Source of the DNA: Octopus vulgaris
Taxonomy: Eukaryota
NCBI GenBank assembly: GCA_951406725.2
Contig: OX597823.1
Location: 4,154,001-4,218,000 of the forward strand
Direction of reading: 5' to 3'
DNA length: 64,000 nucleotides
Positions 32,347 through 59,300 of the stretch are shown here, piece after piece. The position numbers are program-made. Within the stretch, counting starts at the first letter, position 1, and each line of letters starts with the position of its first letter.

Positions 32347-35300
32347 TCATCATCATCATCATCATGTAGCGTCCGCTTTCCATGCTAGCATGGGTTGGAC
32401 GGTTCAACTGGGGTCTGTGAAGCCAGAAGGCTGCATCAGGCCCAGTCTGATCTGGCAGTGTTTCTATGGATAGATGCCCTTCCTAACACCAACCACTCCG
32501 TGAGTGTAGTGGGTGCTTTTTACGTGCCACCCGCACAGGTGCCAGACGGAGCTGGCAAACGGCCATGGACGGATGGTGCTTTTTATGTGCCACCGGCATG
32601 GGGGCCAGGCGAGGCTGGCAACGGCCACGAATGGATGGTGCTTTCCTGAGCGTCCAATAACACTATGCTTGTTCCACATCCTCACACTGTTGTGTTTTCT
32701 CTTTGTTCATGTTTGGATTCACTATGTGTATATGCTGTTAGTGAACATGTGTATTGCTTCTCAGACACTTTTCTTTTTTTTTTTTTAGGGAAGAGGGGAG
32801 GAATCATTGAATTAAAAAATACTCTTTTTTTTTTCTTCTTTTCTTTCCCTAATTTACATTTGGTTCTGTTCTTGTTTTAGTTTCAAATGGTGATTGATGA
32901 GAATATACCACTGCTTCGAACATTCCGTGCTGAACTAGCTAAACGTTCTTCGATGCTTGTTGATGAAGACATGCAAGGATTCTTTCAGCAACTTGATAAA
33001 TTCGATAGTCTTGGCAGTATTCCTGCTAGCTACATGAGCTCTTCCTCCTCCTCTTCAACTGCCATAGCAGCCAATCATCCCTCAGCAACATACACAAGTA
33101 GCACGTTTGTCTCGACAACTAAAACCTCCATAAAACAAATGCACAGACCCAGTCGAGACGCTAAAGATACTCATTTATCAAATATTTCTGAAATGCCTGA
33201 AACTTCACCATTGAATGGTGATGTACATGTTGAAGATGATGCAATGCAAATTTCTCAGATTCCTGTGAAAAATGTCCAAAATGTTATAAGCGTTGCCAAA
33301 ACAAAACTTGAGACAACACACGGTAGTATTTTGGAGAGTTTAGTTGTAAACCCACAGAGCCAGATGAAAGTCAGTTTATATGAAGCATTCCAACAAGGTA
33401 TAATTGACACGAGGTCTGCTACGTATGTGGATCCTCTTACAAAAGCCAAAATAAGTTTGTCAGAAGCAGTCTATAAAGGTTACTTAGATTCAACTTTATT
33501 CCAGCAACTGCACCAACCCTGTGGCCTTGTTGACCCTAATTCAAACCAAGAGTATACACTAATAGATGCTGTCCAGTTAGGTCTTTTGGATCCACTAAAG
33601 GGCCAAGTGTCAAACCCTTTGACTGGAGAAATGATTCCTGTAAAAGATGCATATGGACAAGGTTTAATTTCTCAAAAGCTACCAAGTTTGCTTGGTATTA
33701 GCCCCGACATCACTGTCAGTGAAATTACTCAATCACAAGCTCATTTTGGTCTGCAAAATTTCCCAGGAGCAGACAAAGCTCTCGGTTTGGCAGAAATTCT
33801 TCAGAAGGGTATGTTTGATGAACTGAAGAGCAAAGTTTGTGATCCAATTTCTGGTCAAGAAATGACAATACTTGAGGCAGTTGAGAAAGGTTATATAAAT
33901 CCTTCACTGAAGGAAATCCGTGCAACCAGGGCAACTCCTCTGATTTCTTTGACTGAAGCTGTGTCAAAGGGAATCATTCACCCACAATCCGGACAGTTCC
34001 TGGAAACCAGCTCTGGGAAATGGATGAGCTTATCTGAAGCACAACGTAAACAATTACTTGTTCAACCTATGTCTTTATCAGATGTCGTTCAAAAAGGAAA
34101 CCTCAATGAAGATGGTTTGATCTTCGAGGCTGTAAGTAACCAAGCTATTTCCTTTGCTAACGCTGTCAACCAGGGAATTATCAATACTGATTCTAAAAGT
34201 TTGATAATTACAAAGACTAATGACATATTTTCCCTCAAAGATGCTCTTCAGAAAGGAATCTTAAATGACAAAGGGCAAGTTTTAATACCAGATGCTGAAC
34301 ACCCTCTTTCAATACAAGATGCCTTAAAGGAAGGTCATATTAAAATTGCCAATGAGTGTGTGTCATTCCCACCTAAAACTATTCTGGACAGTAACACTGG
34401 ATCTTTGATGTCTGTTTATGAAGCTCTGATGAACGGAGTTTTGACAACACAAGGTGAGTTTGTTGACTCACAAACTGGAAGAAAGCTTTCAATAATGAAT
34501 GCTGCCAAACATGGTTTCCTTGATGAAGAAATAGCCTCGAATTTGACCAAGAAATTACTTGAAGATCCATCTGGCAGAAAACTATCAGTGATTGAAGCCA
34601 TTAACATTGGCATGATTGATATTCAGTCTGGAAATATTCAAGACAAATCTGGTAATATGGTTCCCTTACAGAATGCAGTTTCTGAAAATATTCTTTCACC
34701 AGAAAAGGCTCAGATGATTTTAGAATTGATAAGTCCGTTAATTATTTCTACAACTGTTACAACTTGTGTGTCATCTGATCAAGTAAAACCACCTGTCACT
34801 GCTATCACAATCTCTGAAGCAATTTCCAGAGGTCTTCTTGCAGAGCAAGCTGGCACATTTAAAGACCCTAATACAGGTGAAATTATGACTATTGAGGATG
34901 CCATCTACCGAAAATTACTTCGTTTGTCATCAGAGTGGCCTTCCAGTAATGTCCCCGGACAGTTTATCAAAAACAGCTTTGATGAATTGGATGAAACAGC
35001 GGAGAGAACACCTAAGAAACAGAAAACTGTGATTTCTAGTGCAGCAGAAAGTACGATACAAACCCCACAAGAATCTCTGAAATCTAATGATTCTATTGTG
35101 GAATCTGCTTTTATTAGTAAATCAGCCCAGAACTATACCTTCACTCAGATAGCTTTGACTAAACCTGTCAAAGCCGTCATCTCTGAAGTTCGTAACATGT
35201 CAATCAAATCTGTTGTGGACCCTAAATCTAAAAAAGTTATTGACGTAGATGAAGCCATCGATAAAGGTCTCATTGATTTAGGTTCTGGTTTATTTTCTGA

Positions 35301-56300: not shown

Positions 56301-59300
56301 TTCTCAACTGATGTTGCCATTAAATTTGAAGTGTTCTAAACCTGAAGCAACTTTGAATGATTATCTTGACAAAGGTTTGTATCAACCCGAGACAGGGTTT
56401 TTAATAGACCCCAACACTGGTAACTCTATGACAATACTGAATGCTTTGAAACTAGAACTTTTGAATCCTTTAGCTGATGAGATTTTGTGTCCTCAGACTC
56501 GAGAAACTATGAACATCCTTGTTGCCAATTCAATTGGCCTTTTATCATTGGAGAAAGGTAAATTTAAACACCCTGTGTCTAATGAAGTTATGAACCTTTA
56601 TGATGCCAAAAAGAAGGGGTGGATTTCAAAGGAGGATAAAGGGTTAAAGGCTCAAAATGCTGATCTAAGCCATTCTACAAATTCCAGTATGTCTGCAGGT
56701 GATAAAACTAACAACACTTATTCTGATTTGAATAATTCTGAGATAGAAAATATGAAACTAGAAGAGGCTTTTGCTTCTGGAATGCTAAGTCGATCAAATT
56801 CTCAAGTGATTGACCCTGATACTGTGCAATCAATTACTCTAAGAAGAGCTGCTAGTTTGGGTCTTATTGATATCAAAACTGGTATATTTAAAAACCCACA
56901 GACAGGGCAGTGCATGAGTTTGGCTGAAGCCCTTCACCAAGGTTTCATCATTAGTCCAAGTGGACTGACCCTATACAGTGCTGTTGATCAGGCTCTTTAT
57001 GATAAAGAGCTTGGGCTTTTCTGTGACCCTTACTCTGGAAAACACAATGATCTCGCTACTGTTGTTCAAAATGGCTTGATCACAGCCAGTTGTATGGAAA
57101 TTCGAGACCTTAATCAGGATTCCATCATAAATCTTCAAGAAGCTATCAAAAGAGGTATAATCGATCCTCATAAGGGAACTTATATTACTCCAGGGGATCA
57201 CAAAAAGCTGGACTTCATTGAAGCAATAGCAGCAGGATTAATAGTGAGCAACAGCACACGAGAAGGGTTGAAAGATTCTAATAATGCAGACTTCACAGAA
57301 ACAACCTCATCAGAAGCGGAGCCGATTCTTTCAGTTGATTCAAACCAAACTTCTCAGGGAACACCTGAGAATGCTGCTAAACCCTATTTGGAAAACAACC
57401 TGCCACAGAAACCCCTTGAAAGGGTTTCTGACTCAGATAATAAGGATAAACAACTTCCTCTGAATGGTTTACCTTCACATACAGACAAGAATATGGCGGA
57501 ATCATTTGAAACTACAGTACCTTCCAAACAAACTTCAGATATTCTGCATACAGAAGAATTTGCTGAAAATCCAGAATTTAAGAAACCAATAAATGATGCC
57601 ACAAAAGAAGCAATACAATTGTCTCTTCCTGATGGTCTGCCTGAAAGTGGATTGTCTGCCTCTCTGTCGCCGGTGTCATCTAACAGAATAGAAACTGTTG
57701 TTCCATCTGCTATTCAGTCCTCTCCAGATTTCTCAGCAGATAAAACTAACCAAATGCCATTTACTGACAAACCCCACCCTCAGCCAACTGAACCAATACA
57801 ATTAACAGATTCTAAGCAAACTAGCAGCAATAAGGAACCTAACCTTCTTGCAAATAAGACGGAAAACAATGTATTCCTGAGAGAGAAAAAAGATGTCAAA
57901 CCACGACCAAATTCTTGGAATCAGTTTTGGCAACAGTCTAGCTGTAAGGTATGGTTCTCCTTGGAATGGACTTGTTGAAGGCTTTCATGATGTGGTTTTT
58001 GCTTCATGTTTCTGAACTAACCTACTGAAAAATTCCTGTACTAACATTATGTACAGGTGCCATGGGCCTGGTTTGTGAAGCAAGAGCAGTTAGTTGAATT
58101 CCAGCAACAATCTCTCAATGGCCATTTTGTTTAACTTGCCCTCAACACAGTTGTCTGAATACTGTTTTACTAATGCTTTGAAAGCATCGATATTATAGTT
58201 TACTGACTTAATTTTTACTGATTGCTGCTTAGATTTCCTTTACCAGATTTGTTCTAATGTTTCTCAAACTTTCTATATGTATACATATAAGATTTCTTTT
58301 TTCTTTTTCTCTTGTAATCTCCGTCTCTGTCTACCTCTAGCATGTTGATTCATTCTATTCCCATCGTTGGTGGATATCTGTGTTAATATATGTGCTTTGA
58401 GTGGAAGTTTTTAAAAGCATGTCTACATCTTGCTCATATCAAAATGTCAAGTCTTGCCTATTAAACACTTCAGTACCATTCATATCTTGCAACTCTATTT
58501 TTAGTGAATATGGACAAGTATTTTCTTTTCCCCTTTTTTTAAAAAAAGATTTCCTAAAACAATTTTGGGGAATAATGATTATTAGTTCGTTAGCTTTCAG
58601 TGTAGATTAAGTGATTGGATGTTTATTTATTCATAGCTCATGTAAAACAGATATCTCATATCATTTCCAGTCTTCTCATGTTTTTTTCACAAATTCTTAT
58701 TCCATTTACTGTTGTGTCTGGGGAGAATCAAATCCAAAAACGAAATATTATTCCATTTAATCGTTTCATAATTTTTCAATCAACATTCTTTGCAATTGAG
58801 GAGTTCTTACATTGTGATTTTTTTTTTTTTTTACAAACATAAATTACTTTATTCATTTAACCATTCTTTAAACCAGAAACAAATGATTGGGAGGGAAAAA
58901 ACTAGAGAGAAAAATATCCTCATTTCTTTTACATTTCTTTCATTTCCTTTTTTTTTAAGTTACCAATTCCACAGAATTATTTGTCTTTGTGTTATAATCC
59001 TTTACAGACAAATATATTTCAAAGAATTTCTTTCTTTTTTTTCTTCTTTCTCTTCTCATTTCAAAATATATCCTTAGAAAACTTGCAAACCTAAAAGATT
59101 TGCTTTTTCTTTCTTTCTTTATTATTTCTCTTTCCAATAAATGAACAAAAAAATCAATATTTTTATTTTTGATATGAACTCGATGCAGTTTTCTTCCCAT
59201 TTTCATTATTTTTTTGCATGCGTTTCTGTGCGCGCGATATTCTAAAAGCCTAAGTGTCTTTTATTTTATTTTCATCTTAAACCACTCTTTACCCTTTTCT

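What the first reader, a model, noticed from the sequence alone, without database searches (positions are those of the whole stretch)
32881..57948. Two independent giant plakin-repeat exons: a possible combinatorial module system in a spectraplakin
Seen: two huge exons (12,399 and 7,506 nt) lie between the last plakin-domain exon (ends 31217, phase 0) and the first rod exon (starts 62673, phase 0). Each is a multiple of 3 and phase 0/0, and a 5.2-kb intron separates them. All four splice outcomes keep the frame, adding 0, 2,502, 4,133 or 6,635 aa. Known: Drosophila shot, vertebrate MACF1b and BPAG1b have an optional large plakin-repeat insert here, typically from one giant exon. Inference: a second, strongly diverged giant exon could give this lineage two different junction or intermediate-filament-binding modules used in different tissues. 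I cannot confirm from the sequence that this is undescribed.
Basis: partly seen in the sequence, partly recalled or inferred. Interest (0 to 1): 0.8.

Follow-up and report, generated by a model that had tools for sequence, protein, structure and literature searches.

The report
Two giant plakin-repeat exons in series
A giant cytoskeletal linker gene (spectraplakin) carries two huge in-frame exons full of plakin repeats one after the other, and each has its own old set of relatives in other genomes, so the layout looks inherited rather than a new invention of this animal.

Summary
Two + strand open frames of 4,164 and 2,518 codons have consensus splice signals at the stated coordinates. All four boundaries, and those of the flanking exons, are phase 0. 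Both match Pfam Plectin repeat: 650 and 127 bits against a cutoff of 20.5. Colinear plakin-domain exons, including a split SH3, lie upstream.

The "lineage-specific second module" reading is not supported. Exon 2 is only 21-23% identical to exon 1. It has its own colinear relatives elsewhere: unspliced ORFs at 87% and 50% identity with the same exon end, and more distant ones at 37-45% over a conserved C-terminal module. Exon 1 has a separate set at 27-40% and 63%. The split therefore predates those genomes.

Two plakin-repeat coding regions in series are already published for vertebrate BPAG1/dystonin. Fly shot has a giant exon plus a small 2-repeat exon.

Combinatorial splicing stays untested, because no transcript data were reachable. 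The source taxa of the relatives are unnamed. I rate it a new variant of a known kind, of moderate interest.

The parts
1825..31217 (+). Plakin-domain exons of the same gene. 14 colinear protein matches; the last exon is about 31008-31217 and ends in phase 0.
   Evidence: tblastn of the NCBI-named spider 'dystonin-like, partial' (P0004) gives 14 colinear + strand pieces, from 1825-1935 to 30990-31196, matching its residues 521-1191. Eleven of the 14 have E > 0.001 and count only through colinearity. Pfam SH3_10 is split over 6636-6797 and 7906-7995 (E 1e-4 and 2e-4); Spectrin_3 and Spectrin give weak hits. Donor AAA|gtaagt at 31217.
32881..45279 (+). Giant exon 1: 12,399 nt, 4,133 codons, phase 0/0, 74 plakin-type repeat units.
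   Evidence: Open frame; splice signals; Pfam Plectin 650 bits; 74 units found with my own iterated HMM. Colinear relatives over the whole length: P0053, P0061, P0039, P0156, P0056 at 36-40% and 27-33%, and P0068 at 63%.
32881..33015 (+). Conserved head of exon 1, about 45 aa, with no repeat.
   Evidence: IPLLRTFRAELAKRSSML.DEDM is nearly invariant in 6 of the 11 exon-1-type ORFs printed. It is recognisable but changed in 4, and cut off at the start in 1.
33343..37668 (+). Repeat array A of exon 1 (aa 155-1596).
   Evidence: Unit list. The dominant spacing is 27 aa: 38 of 73 gaps are 30 aa or less.
37645..37716 (+). Hydrophobic G/A-rich motif 1, at the end of array A.
   Evidence: Kyte-Doolittle peak and motif GAP[LIVM][LIVM][AG] at aa 1598. 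The same motif in context occurs in 9 of 14 exon-1-type ORFs checked.
37784..39498 (+). In-frame tandem repeat inside exon 1: 36-nt units with a 108-nt higher order, coding a P/Q/R/G/S/T-rich linker.
   Evidence: TRF: period 108, 14.9 copies, 91% matches, 37891-39498. 41 registers at 36-nt spacing starting from 37784. Translation.
39988..45201 (+). Repeat array B of exon 1 (aa 2370-4107), holding hydrophobic motif 2 at 41587-41655.
   Evidence: Unit list; motif at aa 2914; relatives colinear over aa 2360-4130.
45280..50442 (+). Intron between the two giant exons, 5,163 nt.
   Evidence: gtaagt...ttttcag. No frame of 60 aa or more with a Pfam match among the 3 tested. Holds dispersed repeats.
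50443..57948 (+). Giant exon 2: 7,506 nt, 2,502 codons, phase 0/0, 30 plakin-type repeat units.
   Evidence: Open frame; splice signals; Pfam Plectin 127.2 bits, E 2e-37; 30 units. Relatives: P0005 at 87% over 100% of the exon, P0006 at 50%, both ending in the same read-through after K|V. Codon-usage (RSCU) correlation with exon 1 is 0.95 in frame, against 0.54-0.64 out of frame.
50848..54363 (+). N-terminal repeat array of exon 2 (aa 136-1307).
   Evidence: Unit list. 84-96% identical to P0005 per 100-aa block. 29-36% identical to distant exon-2-type ORFs.
54364..56346 (+). Repeat-free, fast-evolving spacer of exon 2.
   Evidence: 70-81% identity to P0005 here, against 84-99% in the repeat blocks. 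Mostly absent from P0006.
56347..57282 (+). Conserved C-terminal module of exon 2 (aa 1969-2280).
   Evidence: 37-45% identity to all distant exon-2-type ORFs. 71 invariant columns in a 7-sequence alignment. The signature IDPD[TS].Q.IT...A.S.G.ID occurs in 12 of 166 stored hits. The AF2 model shows two sub-domains of beta-hairpin plus short helix units.
62673..62819 (+). Next downstream exon, 49 codons, phase 0/0; probably the start of the spectrin-repeat rod.
   Evidence: Splice signals. Weak match to a spectrin-repeat start in P0004 (E 0.05). No Pfam hit.

Best explanation
The window holds the middle of one spectraplakin gene (the MACF1 / dystonin / Shot / VAB-10 kind). After the plakin domain come two giant internal exons, both made of short plakin (plectin) type repeats, and then the rod.

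Shown:
- Both are genuine, selectively maintained coding exons with consensus splice sites, and every boundary is phase 0.
- They belong to two different, separately conserved exon families.
- The exon-1 type has a near-invariant head peptide, two arrays of mostly paired 27-residue units, and a hydrophobic GAP motif at the end of the arrays.
- The exon-2 type has an N-terminal array, a fast-evolving spacer, a strongly conserved C-terminal module of about 310 residues, and a conserved tail.
- The two-exon arrangement is therefore inherited, not a recent duplication.

Inferred from fly, worm and vertebrate spectraplakins:
- Each exon is probably included or skipped by alternative splicing.
- This would insert 4,133, 2,502 or 6,635 residues of repeat scaffold between the actin-binding/plakin head and the microtubule-binding spectrin rod.
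- The inserts would tether the linker to other partners: intermediate filaments, junctions or membranes.
- The conserved exon-2 C module is the likeliest specific binding site.
For: Coding and splice evidence:
- Open frames far beyond chance.
- Splice signals and phases.
- Pfam Plectin 650 and 127 bits; 74 and 30 repeat units.

Same gene:
- 14 colinear upstream plakin-domain pieces and a split SH3_10.

Two families:
- Exon 1 against exon 2 is only 21-23% identical.
- Exon-2-type ORFs P0005 (87%), P0006 (50%), and P0010, P0012, P0017, P0020 score 394-4,291 bits against exon 2 and only 126-210 bits against exon 1.
- Exon-1-type ORFs P0053, P0061, P0039, P0156, P0056, P0068 score 941-1,739 bits against exon 1 and 107-129 bits against exon 2.
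- Both sets are colinear over the whole exon.

Conserved exon ends:
- Relatives read through K|V (exon 2) or |VS (exon 1) and stop within 5-60 codons (8 to about 40 in the exon-1-type ORFs).

Selection:
- Exon 2 is 84-99% identical to P0005 in repeat blocks and 70-81% in the spacer.
- RSCU correlation with exon 1 is 0.95 in frame.

Precedent for optional use:
- shot giant exon (PMC2173965).
- MACF1b (PMC4914211).
- BPAG1-b and BPAG1-e (PMC2196450).
Against: - No transcript evidence of any kind was reachable, so skipping or inclusion of either exon is inference.
- The near-invariant head of exon 1 could mean that at least its start is needed in all isoforms. I found no good in-frame internal donor near it: the best scores 5.3 against 8.6-12.6 for the real donors.
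- No relative could be placed on a named genome, and none was seen next to the other exon type. That both types coexist in other species is inferred from matching tiers of divergence only.
- The downstream 'rod' exon is weakly supported.
- The model of the exon-2 C module resembles solved plakin repeat domains only locally (best Foldseek E 2.6e-3, TM 0.11-0.19), so intermediate-filament binding cannot be read off the fold.
Confidence: 0.7

Rival explanations
1. One reading: the second giant exon is a lineage-specific, strongly diverged addition. It would give this animal a four-way combinatorial system of junction or filament-binding modules.
For: Frame compatibility of all four paths. Strong divergence between the exons. 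My literature searches found no description of two giant internal repeat exons in a protostome spectraplakin.
Against: Exon 2 has deep relatives of its own, down to 29-45% identity, with conserved architecture, signature and exon end. Published loci already have two repeat-coding regions. Neighbouring exons are also phase 0/0, so frame compatibility is not special to these two.
Confidence: 0.12
2. Both giant exons are constitutive in the main transcript. The gene then simply encodes one very long repeat region split by an intron, with no combinatorial use.
For: Strong consensus sites on all four boundaries (donor scores 10.3 and 8.6). Both exons are under protein-level constraint. The head of exon 1 is near-invariant across distant relatives.
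Against: In every spectraplakin studied, the internal repeat region is optional. The spider model P0004 shows a repeat insert of only about 2,900 aa.
Confidence: 0.12
3. Exon 2 also, or instead, serves as an alternative first coding exon from an intronic promoter. That would give an N-terminally truncated isoform starting with repeats, as described for MACF1-4.
For: An in-frame ATG is codon 4 of exon 2, and an in-frame TGA lies 7 codons upstream of the acceptor. MACF1-4 starts with plectin repeats (PMC4914211). The Shot review mentions an extra exon, conserved between dystonin and MACF1, that may be an alternative start.
Against: The acceptor at 50442 is well formed and in phase with both upstream donors. 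The ATG in P0005 is simply where an ORF caller must start. No promoter evidence was sought or found.
Confidence: 0.08
4. Exon 1 acts as an alternative last exon through read-through of its donor. That would give a plakin-like short isoform ending in repeats, as in VAB-10A or BPAG1-e.
For: Read-through of the donor adds 32 codons and then a stop. Worm and vertebrate loci make such isoforms.
Against: No AATAAA or ATTAAA in the 1 kb after that stop. The donor is a perfect gtaagt and its position is conserved.
Confidence: 0.04

Closest known systems
Drosophila shot plakin repeat region (Shot-PH; Roper and Brown 2003, PMC2173965; review 10.1101/122010)
   Same: [quoted passage not shown] Its repeats are dispersed rather than grouped into 4.5-repeat domains. 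A second exon with 2 plectin repeats also exists.
   Different: Here the second repeat exon is itself giant (7,506 nt, 30 units) and has a conserved module of about 310 aa. Orthology of exon 1 to the fly exon, and of the exon-2 core to the small fly exon, was not tested because no named fly sequence was reachable.
Vertebrate BPAG1 / dystonin locus (Leung et al. 2001, PMC2196450)
   Same: Two separate plakin-repeat coding regions lie in series between the plakin-domain exons and the spectrin-repeat exons. They are a few kb apart and are used in different tissues: IFBD1 in skin, and the roughly 5-kb IFBD2 exon in heart and muscle.
   Different: The first vertebrate region follows a coiled-coil rod exon and is terminal, with a stop and a poly(A) signal. 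Exon 1 here is an internal phase 0/0 exon with a conserved donor, and no poly(A) signal follows within 1 kb. Both regions here are far larger.
MACF1b (Lin et al. 2005, as reviewed in PMC4914211)
   Same: [quoted passage not shown]
   Different: One exon, with five recognisable A/B/C-type plakin repeat domains. Here the units are mostly 27 aa apart, and the model does not superpose on solved plakin repeat domains.
C. elegans vab-10A (Bosher et al. 2003, PMC2199363)
   Same: Plectin repeats are coded by two dedicated exons (16 and 17, one of them large) after the shared plakin-domain exons. A single conserved repeat cluster lies near the C end.
   Different: In the worm these exons form an alternative 3' end that is never joined to the rod exons. 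Here both exons have donors in phase with the rod exon.

Membership tests
Spectraplakin gene (MACF1 / DST / shot / vab-10) | Plakin domain: spectrin-like repeats with an embedded SH3. | tested here: met
   14 colinear pieces match residues 521-1191 of the NCBI-named spider dystonin-like protein. Pfam SH3_10 is split over two exons, E 1e-4 and 2e-4. Most single pieces are weak and count through colinearity.
Spectraplakin gene (MACF1 / DST / shot / vab-10) | N-terminal calponin-homology actin-binding domain. | not testable with these tools
   It would lie upstream of the window. The window starts inside the plakin domain.
Spectraplakin gene (MACF1 / DST / shot / vab-10) | Spectrin-repeat rod, EF hands and GAR domain downstream. 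| tested here: inconclusive
   Only one 49-codon exon falls in the window. It has a weak match to a spectrin-repeat start (E 0.05) and no Pfam hit.
Plectin / plakin repeat (Pfam PF00681) | Sequence match above the curated cutoff of 20.5 bits. | tested here: met
   Exon 1 scores 650 bits and exon 2 scores 127.2 bits.
Canonical plakin repeat domain (PRD: 4.5 repeats of 38 residues in a globular module) | 38-residue repeat period. | tested here: not met
   The commonest spacing between unit starts is 27 aa. 38 of 73 gaps in exon 1 and 14 of 29 in exon 2 are 30 aa or less. Model units are a beta-hairpin plus one short helix.
Canonical plakin repeat domain (PRD: 4.5 repeats of 38 residues in a globular module) | Globular fold superposable on solved desmoplakin or envoplakin PRDs. 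| tested here: inconclusive
   Desmoplakin and envoplakin PRDs are the top Foldseek hits, but only at E 2.6e-3 to 0.35 and TM 0.11-0.19. The model is moderate: pLDDT 69, pTM 0.44, from 7 sequences. The profile against PDB sequences gives desmoplakin E 1.5e-5 and plectin 6e-4.
Alternatively spliced cassette exon | Symmetric phase, so that skipping keeps the frame. | tested here: met
   Lengths 12,399 and 7,506 nt; all boundaries are phase 0.
Alternatively spliced cassette exon | Transcripts both with and without the exon. | not testable with these tools
   No RNA data. Proteins above 5,000 aa are not searchable.
BPAG1/DST-type double plakin-repeat layout | Two separate repeat-coding regions in series between the plakin-domain and rod exons. 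| tested here: met
   Exons at 32881-45279 and 50443-57948, between 31217 and 62673.
BPAG1/DST-type double plakin-repeat layout | The first region is a terminal exon with a stop and a poly(A) signal, preceded by a coiled-coil rod exon. | tested here: not met
   Exon 1 has a conserved consensus donor. No AATAAA or ATTAAA in the 1 kb after the read-through stop. The coiled-coil exon was not looked for specifically.

The most novel reading that the evidence does not exclude
The ancestral bilaterian, or at least protostome, spectraplakin gene already carried two distinct giant plakin-repeat cassettes in series.
- The exon-1 type would be the one that survives as the fly shot giant exon.
- The exon-2 type has a near-invariant two-unit core (aa ~2120-2175 of exon 2). 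That core would survive as the small 2-repeat exon of fly shot, and perhaps as the internal repeat exon of vertebrate MACF1b / BPAG1-b.

This would give a single evolutionary scheme for repeat regions that are now treated as loosely similar (8-15% identity in the Shot review). It would also single out the exon-2 C module as a conserved, unstudied binding site.
Probability: 0.25. Interest if true: 0.6.

Novelty: new variant of a known kind. Interest (0 to 1): 0.4.

Why it matters
Internal plakin-repeat regions are the least understood part of spectraplakins. [quoted passage not shown]

If two separately conserved repeat cassettes exist, the conserved exon-2 module of about 310 residues and the conserved head and hydrophobic motifs of exon 1 become concrete candidates for binding sites. 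The question of which cassette goes with which tissue also becomes directly testable with junction counts.

The result also corrects the idea that this layout is an innovation of one lineage.

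Tried and rejected
Chance or pseudo-exon: rejected on frame length, Pfam matches and domain-structured conservation.

Recent duplication of exon 1: rejected, since identity is 21-23% in every register.

Protein searches:
- The search for homologous proteins reached only proteins of 5,000 aa or less (2,000 or less). It gave no named exon-2-type hit. The only named hits were a spider dystonin-like partial at 22% and a nematode hypothetical protein at 24%.
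The names and taxa of the hits stayed unknown, and I did not try to trace them.
- The protein atlas gave only generic Plectin-repeat clusters below 0.9.

Extra coding sequence in the introns:
- None of 3 frames between the giant exons had a Pfam match.
- None of 10 + strand frames between exon 2 and the rod exon had one.
- A six-frame scan with my repeat HMM failed because the script machine was lost.

Mini-exon use of the exon 1 head, as in fly: no good in-frame donor in the first 900 nt.

Other scans: Rfam and tRNA scans were empty.

Full report
**Observation**

A stop-to-stop listing of all six frames finds four frames of 250 codons or more. Two are on the + strand: 32881..45375 (4,164 codons) and 50422..57978 (2,518 codons). 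The other two (321 and 578 codons) are other frames of a tandem repeat inside the first.

With the window's base composition a stop is expected in 6.45% of codons. The chance of such frames is 10^-120.6 and 10^-72.9. The longest frame elsewhere is 238 codons.

- A long pyrimidine run and ag before 32881.
- ACG|gtaagt at 45279/45280.
- ttttcag before 50443, seven codons after an in-frame TGA.
- AAG|gtatgg at 57948/57949.

The exons are 12,399 and 7,506 nt and the intron between them is 5,163 nt. The upstream exon ends AAA|gtaagt at 31217 in phase 0. The downstream exon 62673-62819 has 49 codons and is phase 0/0. All four inclusion patterns therefore keep the frame, as stated. The neighbouring small exons are symmetric too, so this is a property of the region rather than of the two giant exons alone.

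**What the gene is**

tblastn with the one named relative that the searches returned (NCBI 'dystonin-like, partial', a spider, P0004) gives 14 colinear + strand pieces. They run from 1825 to 31196 and match its residues 521-1191, the plakin domain. Eleven of the 14 pieces have E > 0.001 and are convincing only through order and strand.

Exon-by-exon Pfam scans find the plakin SH3 (SH3_10) split over 6636-6797 and 7906-7995, plus weak Spectrin_3 and Spectrin matches.

The 49-codon downstream exon has only a weak spectrin-repeat-like match (E 0.05) and no Pfam hit. 'First rod exon' is therefore likely but not shown.

Both giant exons match Pfam Plectin repeat, 650 and 127.2 bits against a cutoff of 20.5. 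The source species was not identified.

**Anatomy of exon 1**

A repeat HMM iterated on the two exons finds 74 units in exon 1, at aa 155-1596 and 2370-4107. The commonest start-to-start spacing is 27 residues, not 38: 38 of 73 gaps are 30 aa or less.

Exon 1 also has these features:
- A repeat-free head.
- An in-frame 36-nt / 108-nt tandem repeat at 37784-39498, coding a P/Q/R/G-rich linker.
- Two hydrophobic G/A-rich motifs, one after each array.

**Anatomy of exon 2**

The same HMM finds 30 units in exon 2, at aa 136-1307 and 1988-2271. Here 14 of 29 gaps are 30 aa or less.

Exon 2 has an N-terminal array, a repeat-free spacer, a C-terminal module and a tail.

**Two exon families**

Exon 2 aligns to exon 1 at only 21-23% identity, in many registers. 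So it is not a recent copy.

A full HMMER scan of 1.84 billion representatives with exon 2 aa 100-1299 gave 339 hits at E <= 0.001. I classified the hits by best BLASTP score against each exon.

Exon-2-type hits:
- P0005: 87% over 100% of the exon.
- P0006: 50% and 46% over the two repeat regions.
- P0010, P0012, P0017, P0020: 29-32% on the N array and 37-44% on the C module.
- Four further ORFs: 29-36% and 36-46%.
- All are colinear with exon 2.
- The first six score 394-4,291 bits against exon 2 and 126-210 bits against exon 1.

Exon-1-type hits:
- P0053, P0061, P0039, P0156, P0056: colinear with the whole of exon 1, 36-40% on aa 3-1625 and 27-33% on aa 2360-4130.
- P0068: 63%.
- These score 941-1,739 bits against exon 1 and 107-129 bits against exon 2.

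Further support:
- A profile of the exon-2 C module (7 sequences, 71 invariant columns) retrieved six more ORFs at 39-42%.
- The signature IDPD[TS].Q.IT...A.S.G.ID is present in 12 of 166 stored hits. The looser exon-1 GAP motif is in 51 of 166 and in none of those 12. That motif is short and partly due to chance.

**The relatives are unspliced ORFs with the same exon ends**

- P0005 ends with the same nine read-through codons after K|V as the window. P0006 ends 12 codons after K|V.
- The distant exon-2-type ORFs end [RH]K|V plus 5-60 codons.
- Exon-1-type ORFs start at the Met in codon 3 of the exon (where their start is intact). Six of the 11 printed carry the head IPLLRTFRAELAKRSSML.DEDM almost unchanged. 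Four show it changed, and one starts inside it.
- Their tails keep similarity past the alternative donor at 45228 and break at |VS. This supports 45279 as the conserved donor.

**Evidence for selection on exon 2**

- Identity to P0005 is 84-99% per 100 residues in the repeat blocks and 70-81% in the spacer.
- P0006 has lost most of the spacer but keeps the blocks.
- Codon preferences of exon 2 correlate with those of exon 1 at 0.95 in frame, against 0.54-0.64 out of frame and 0.77-0.86 for the intron.

**Limits of the family evidence**

All these relatives come from unnamed sources. I can therefore say three things: the two exon types are separately conserved to comparable depth, no stored ORF carries both signatures, and the split is older than the spread of these genomes.

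I cannot name the taxa or show that both types sit in one gene elsewhere.

Four distant exon-2-like ORFs (tails ..ARERRK|V) might be vertebrate, and I cannot exclude human. I used them only in local comparison and not afterwards.

**Fold**

An AlphaFold2 model of the exon-2 C module (7-sequence alignment) has mean pLDDT 69 and pTM 0.44. It shows two confident sub-domains built of a beta-hairpin plus one short helix per unit.

Foldseek against the PDB puts desmoplakin and envoplakin plakin repeat domains on top, but weakly: E 2.6e-3 to 0.35 and TM 0.11-0.19. The sequence profile finds desmoplakin at E 1.5e-5 and plectin at 6e-4.

The units are thus plakin-type, but the canonical 4.5 x 38-residue globular domain is not reproduced. 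Roper and Brown made the same point for fly Shot (PMC2173965, passages).

**Comparison with what is known**

I read passages of each paper cited here, not whole texts. Supplements were closed.

- Fly shot has one exon of 10,497 nt with 33 repeats that is optionally included. According to the Shot review it also has a second exon with 2 plectin repeats, present in many isoforms (10.1101/122010).
- Worm vab-10 has exons 16-17 as an alternative repeat-bearing 3' end (PMC2199363).
- Mouse and human BPAG1 have a coiled-coil exon and an IFBD1 exon with a stop and a poly(A) signal. About 4 kb on lies a roughly 5-kb ORF exon (IFBD2, BPAG1-b), and about 3 kb further the spectrin-repeat exons. Use is skin-specific and heart/muscle-specific respectively (PMC2196450).

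Two repeat-coding regions in series with tissue-specific use are therefore already in print.

What I did not find in print is two giant internal phase-0/0 repeat exons with separate orthology groups. The searches were (badly designed). One paper notes plectin repeats in mollusc spectraplakins at domain level only (PMC9145010, passages). The library misses most subscription journals.

**Mechanism**

Shown: two maintained coding exons of one spectraplakin gene, from two old families, that are frame-compatible with skipping.

Inferred by analogy: alternative inclusion puts 2,502, 4,133 or 6,635 residues of repeat scaffold between the head and the rod. This would add attachment sites for intermediate filaments, junctions or membranes. 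The exon-2 C module, the exon-1 head and the hydrophobic motifs are the most constrained candidate sites.

Points against, or still open:
- No transcript data were reachable.
- No in-frame internal donor lies near the exon 1 head.
- No poly(A) signal follows within 1 kb of exon 1's read-through stop.
- No further repeat exon was seen in the introns. The systematic six-frame scan could not be run.

**Verdict**

I rate it a new variant of a known kind, interest 0.4.

Noticed in passing
window 37784-39498 (+), inside exon 1: In-frame tandem repeat of 36-nt units with a 108-nt higher order (14.9 copies of the 108-nt unit, 91% matches). It codes a P/Q/R/G/S/T-rich 12-aa repeat between the two repeat arrays. 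It also creates the spurious long frames 37688-38653 (+) and 37790-39526 (-).
   Followed up: partly
window 37645-37716 and 41587-41655 (+), exon 1 aa ~1589-1612 and ~2903-2925: Hydrophobic G/A-rich motif (..GLLAxVGAPxxAGK..) directly after a repeat unit, present twice in exon 1. It occurs in the same context in 9 of 14 exon-1-type ORFs checked and is absent from exon 2. Function unknown; possibly a membrane-associating or packing segment.
   Followed up: partly
window 32881-33015 (+): The first ~30-45 residues of exon 1 (IPLLRTFRAELAKRSSML.DEDM..) are almost invariant in relatives that are only 36-40% identical overall. This suggests a distinct functional element at the plakin-domain / repeat junction.
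   Followed up: partly
window 45228/45229 (+): A second in-frame consensus donor (CAG|gtaatt, score 9.3 against 10.3 for the main donor) lies 17 codons before the end of exon 1. It could give a slightly shorter exon.
   Followed up: partly
window 54364-56346 (+), exon 2 aa ~1308-1968: Repeat-free S/N/Q/P-rich spacer that evolves faster than the rest (70-81% against 84-99% identity to the closest relative). It is largely missing in the 50% relative.
   Followed up: yes
window introns, e.g. 741-892, 7396-7547, 17917-18068, 27748-27899; 3707-3802, 18849-18944, 49586-49681; 13151-13242 and 63611-63702: Several families of short dispersed repeats (62-93% identity), SINE-like, in both orientations and confined to introns.
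   Followed up: no
window 1321-1686, and inverted match 19791-19881: Microsatellite-like array with 8-14-nt spacing, and an inverted copy 18 kb away.
   Followed up: no
window 48925-49455 (-) and 48981-49451 (+): Overlapping frames of 176 and 156 codons in the intron between the giant exons, with no Pfam match. Possibly a decayed mobile element.
   Followed up: partly
window 56800-56970 (+), exon 2 aa ~2120-2175: The most invariant stretch of the exon-2 C module is exactly two adjacent repeat units. The Shot review describes a small fly exon with 2 plectin repeats that is present in many isoforms. A possible counterpart; untested.
   Followed up: no
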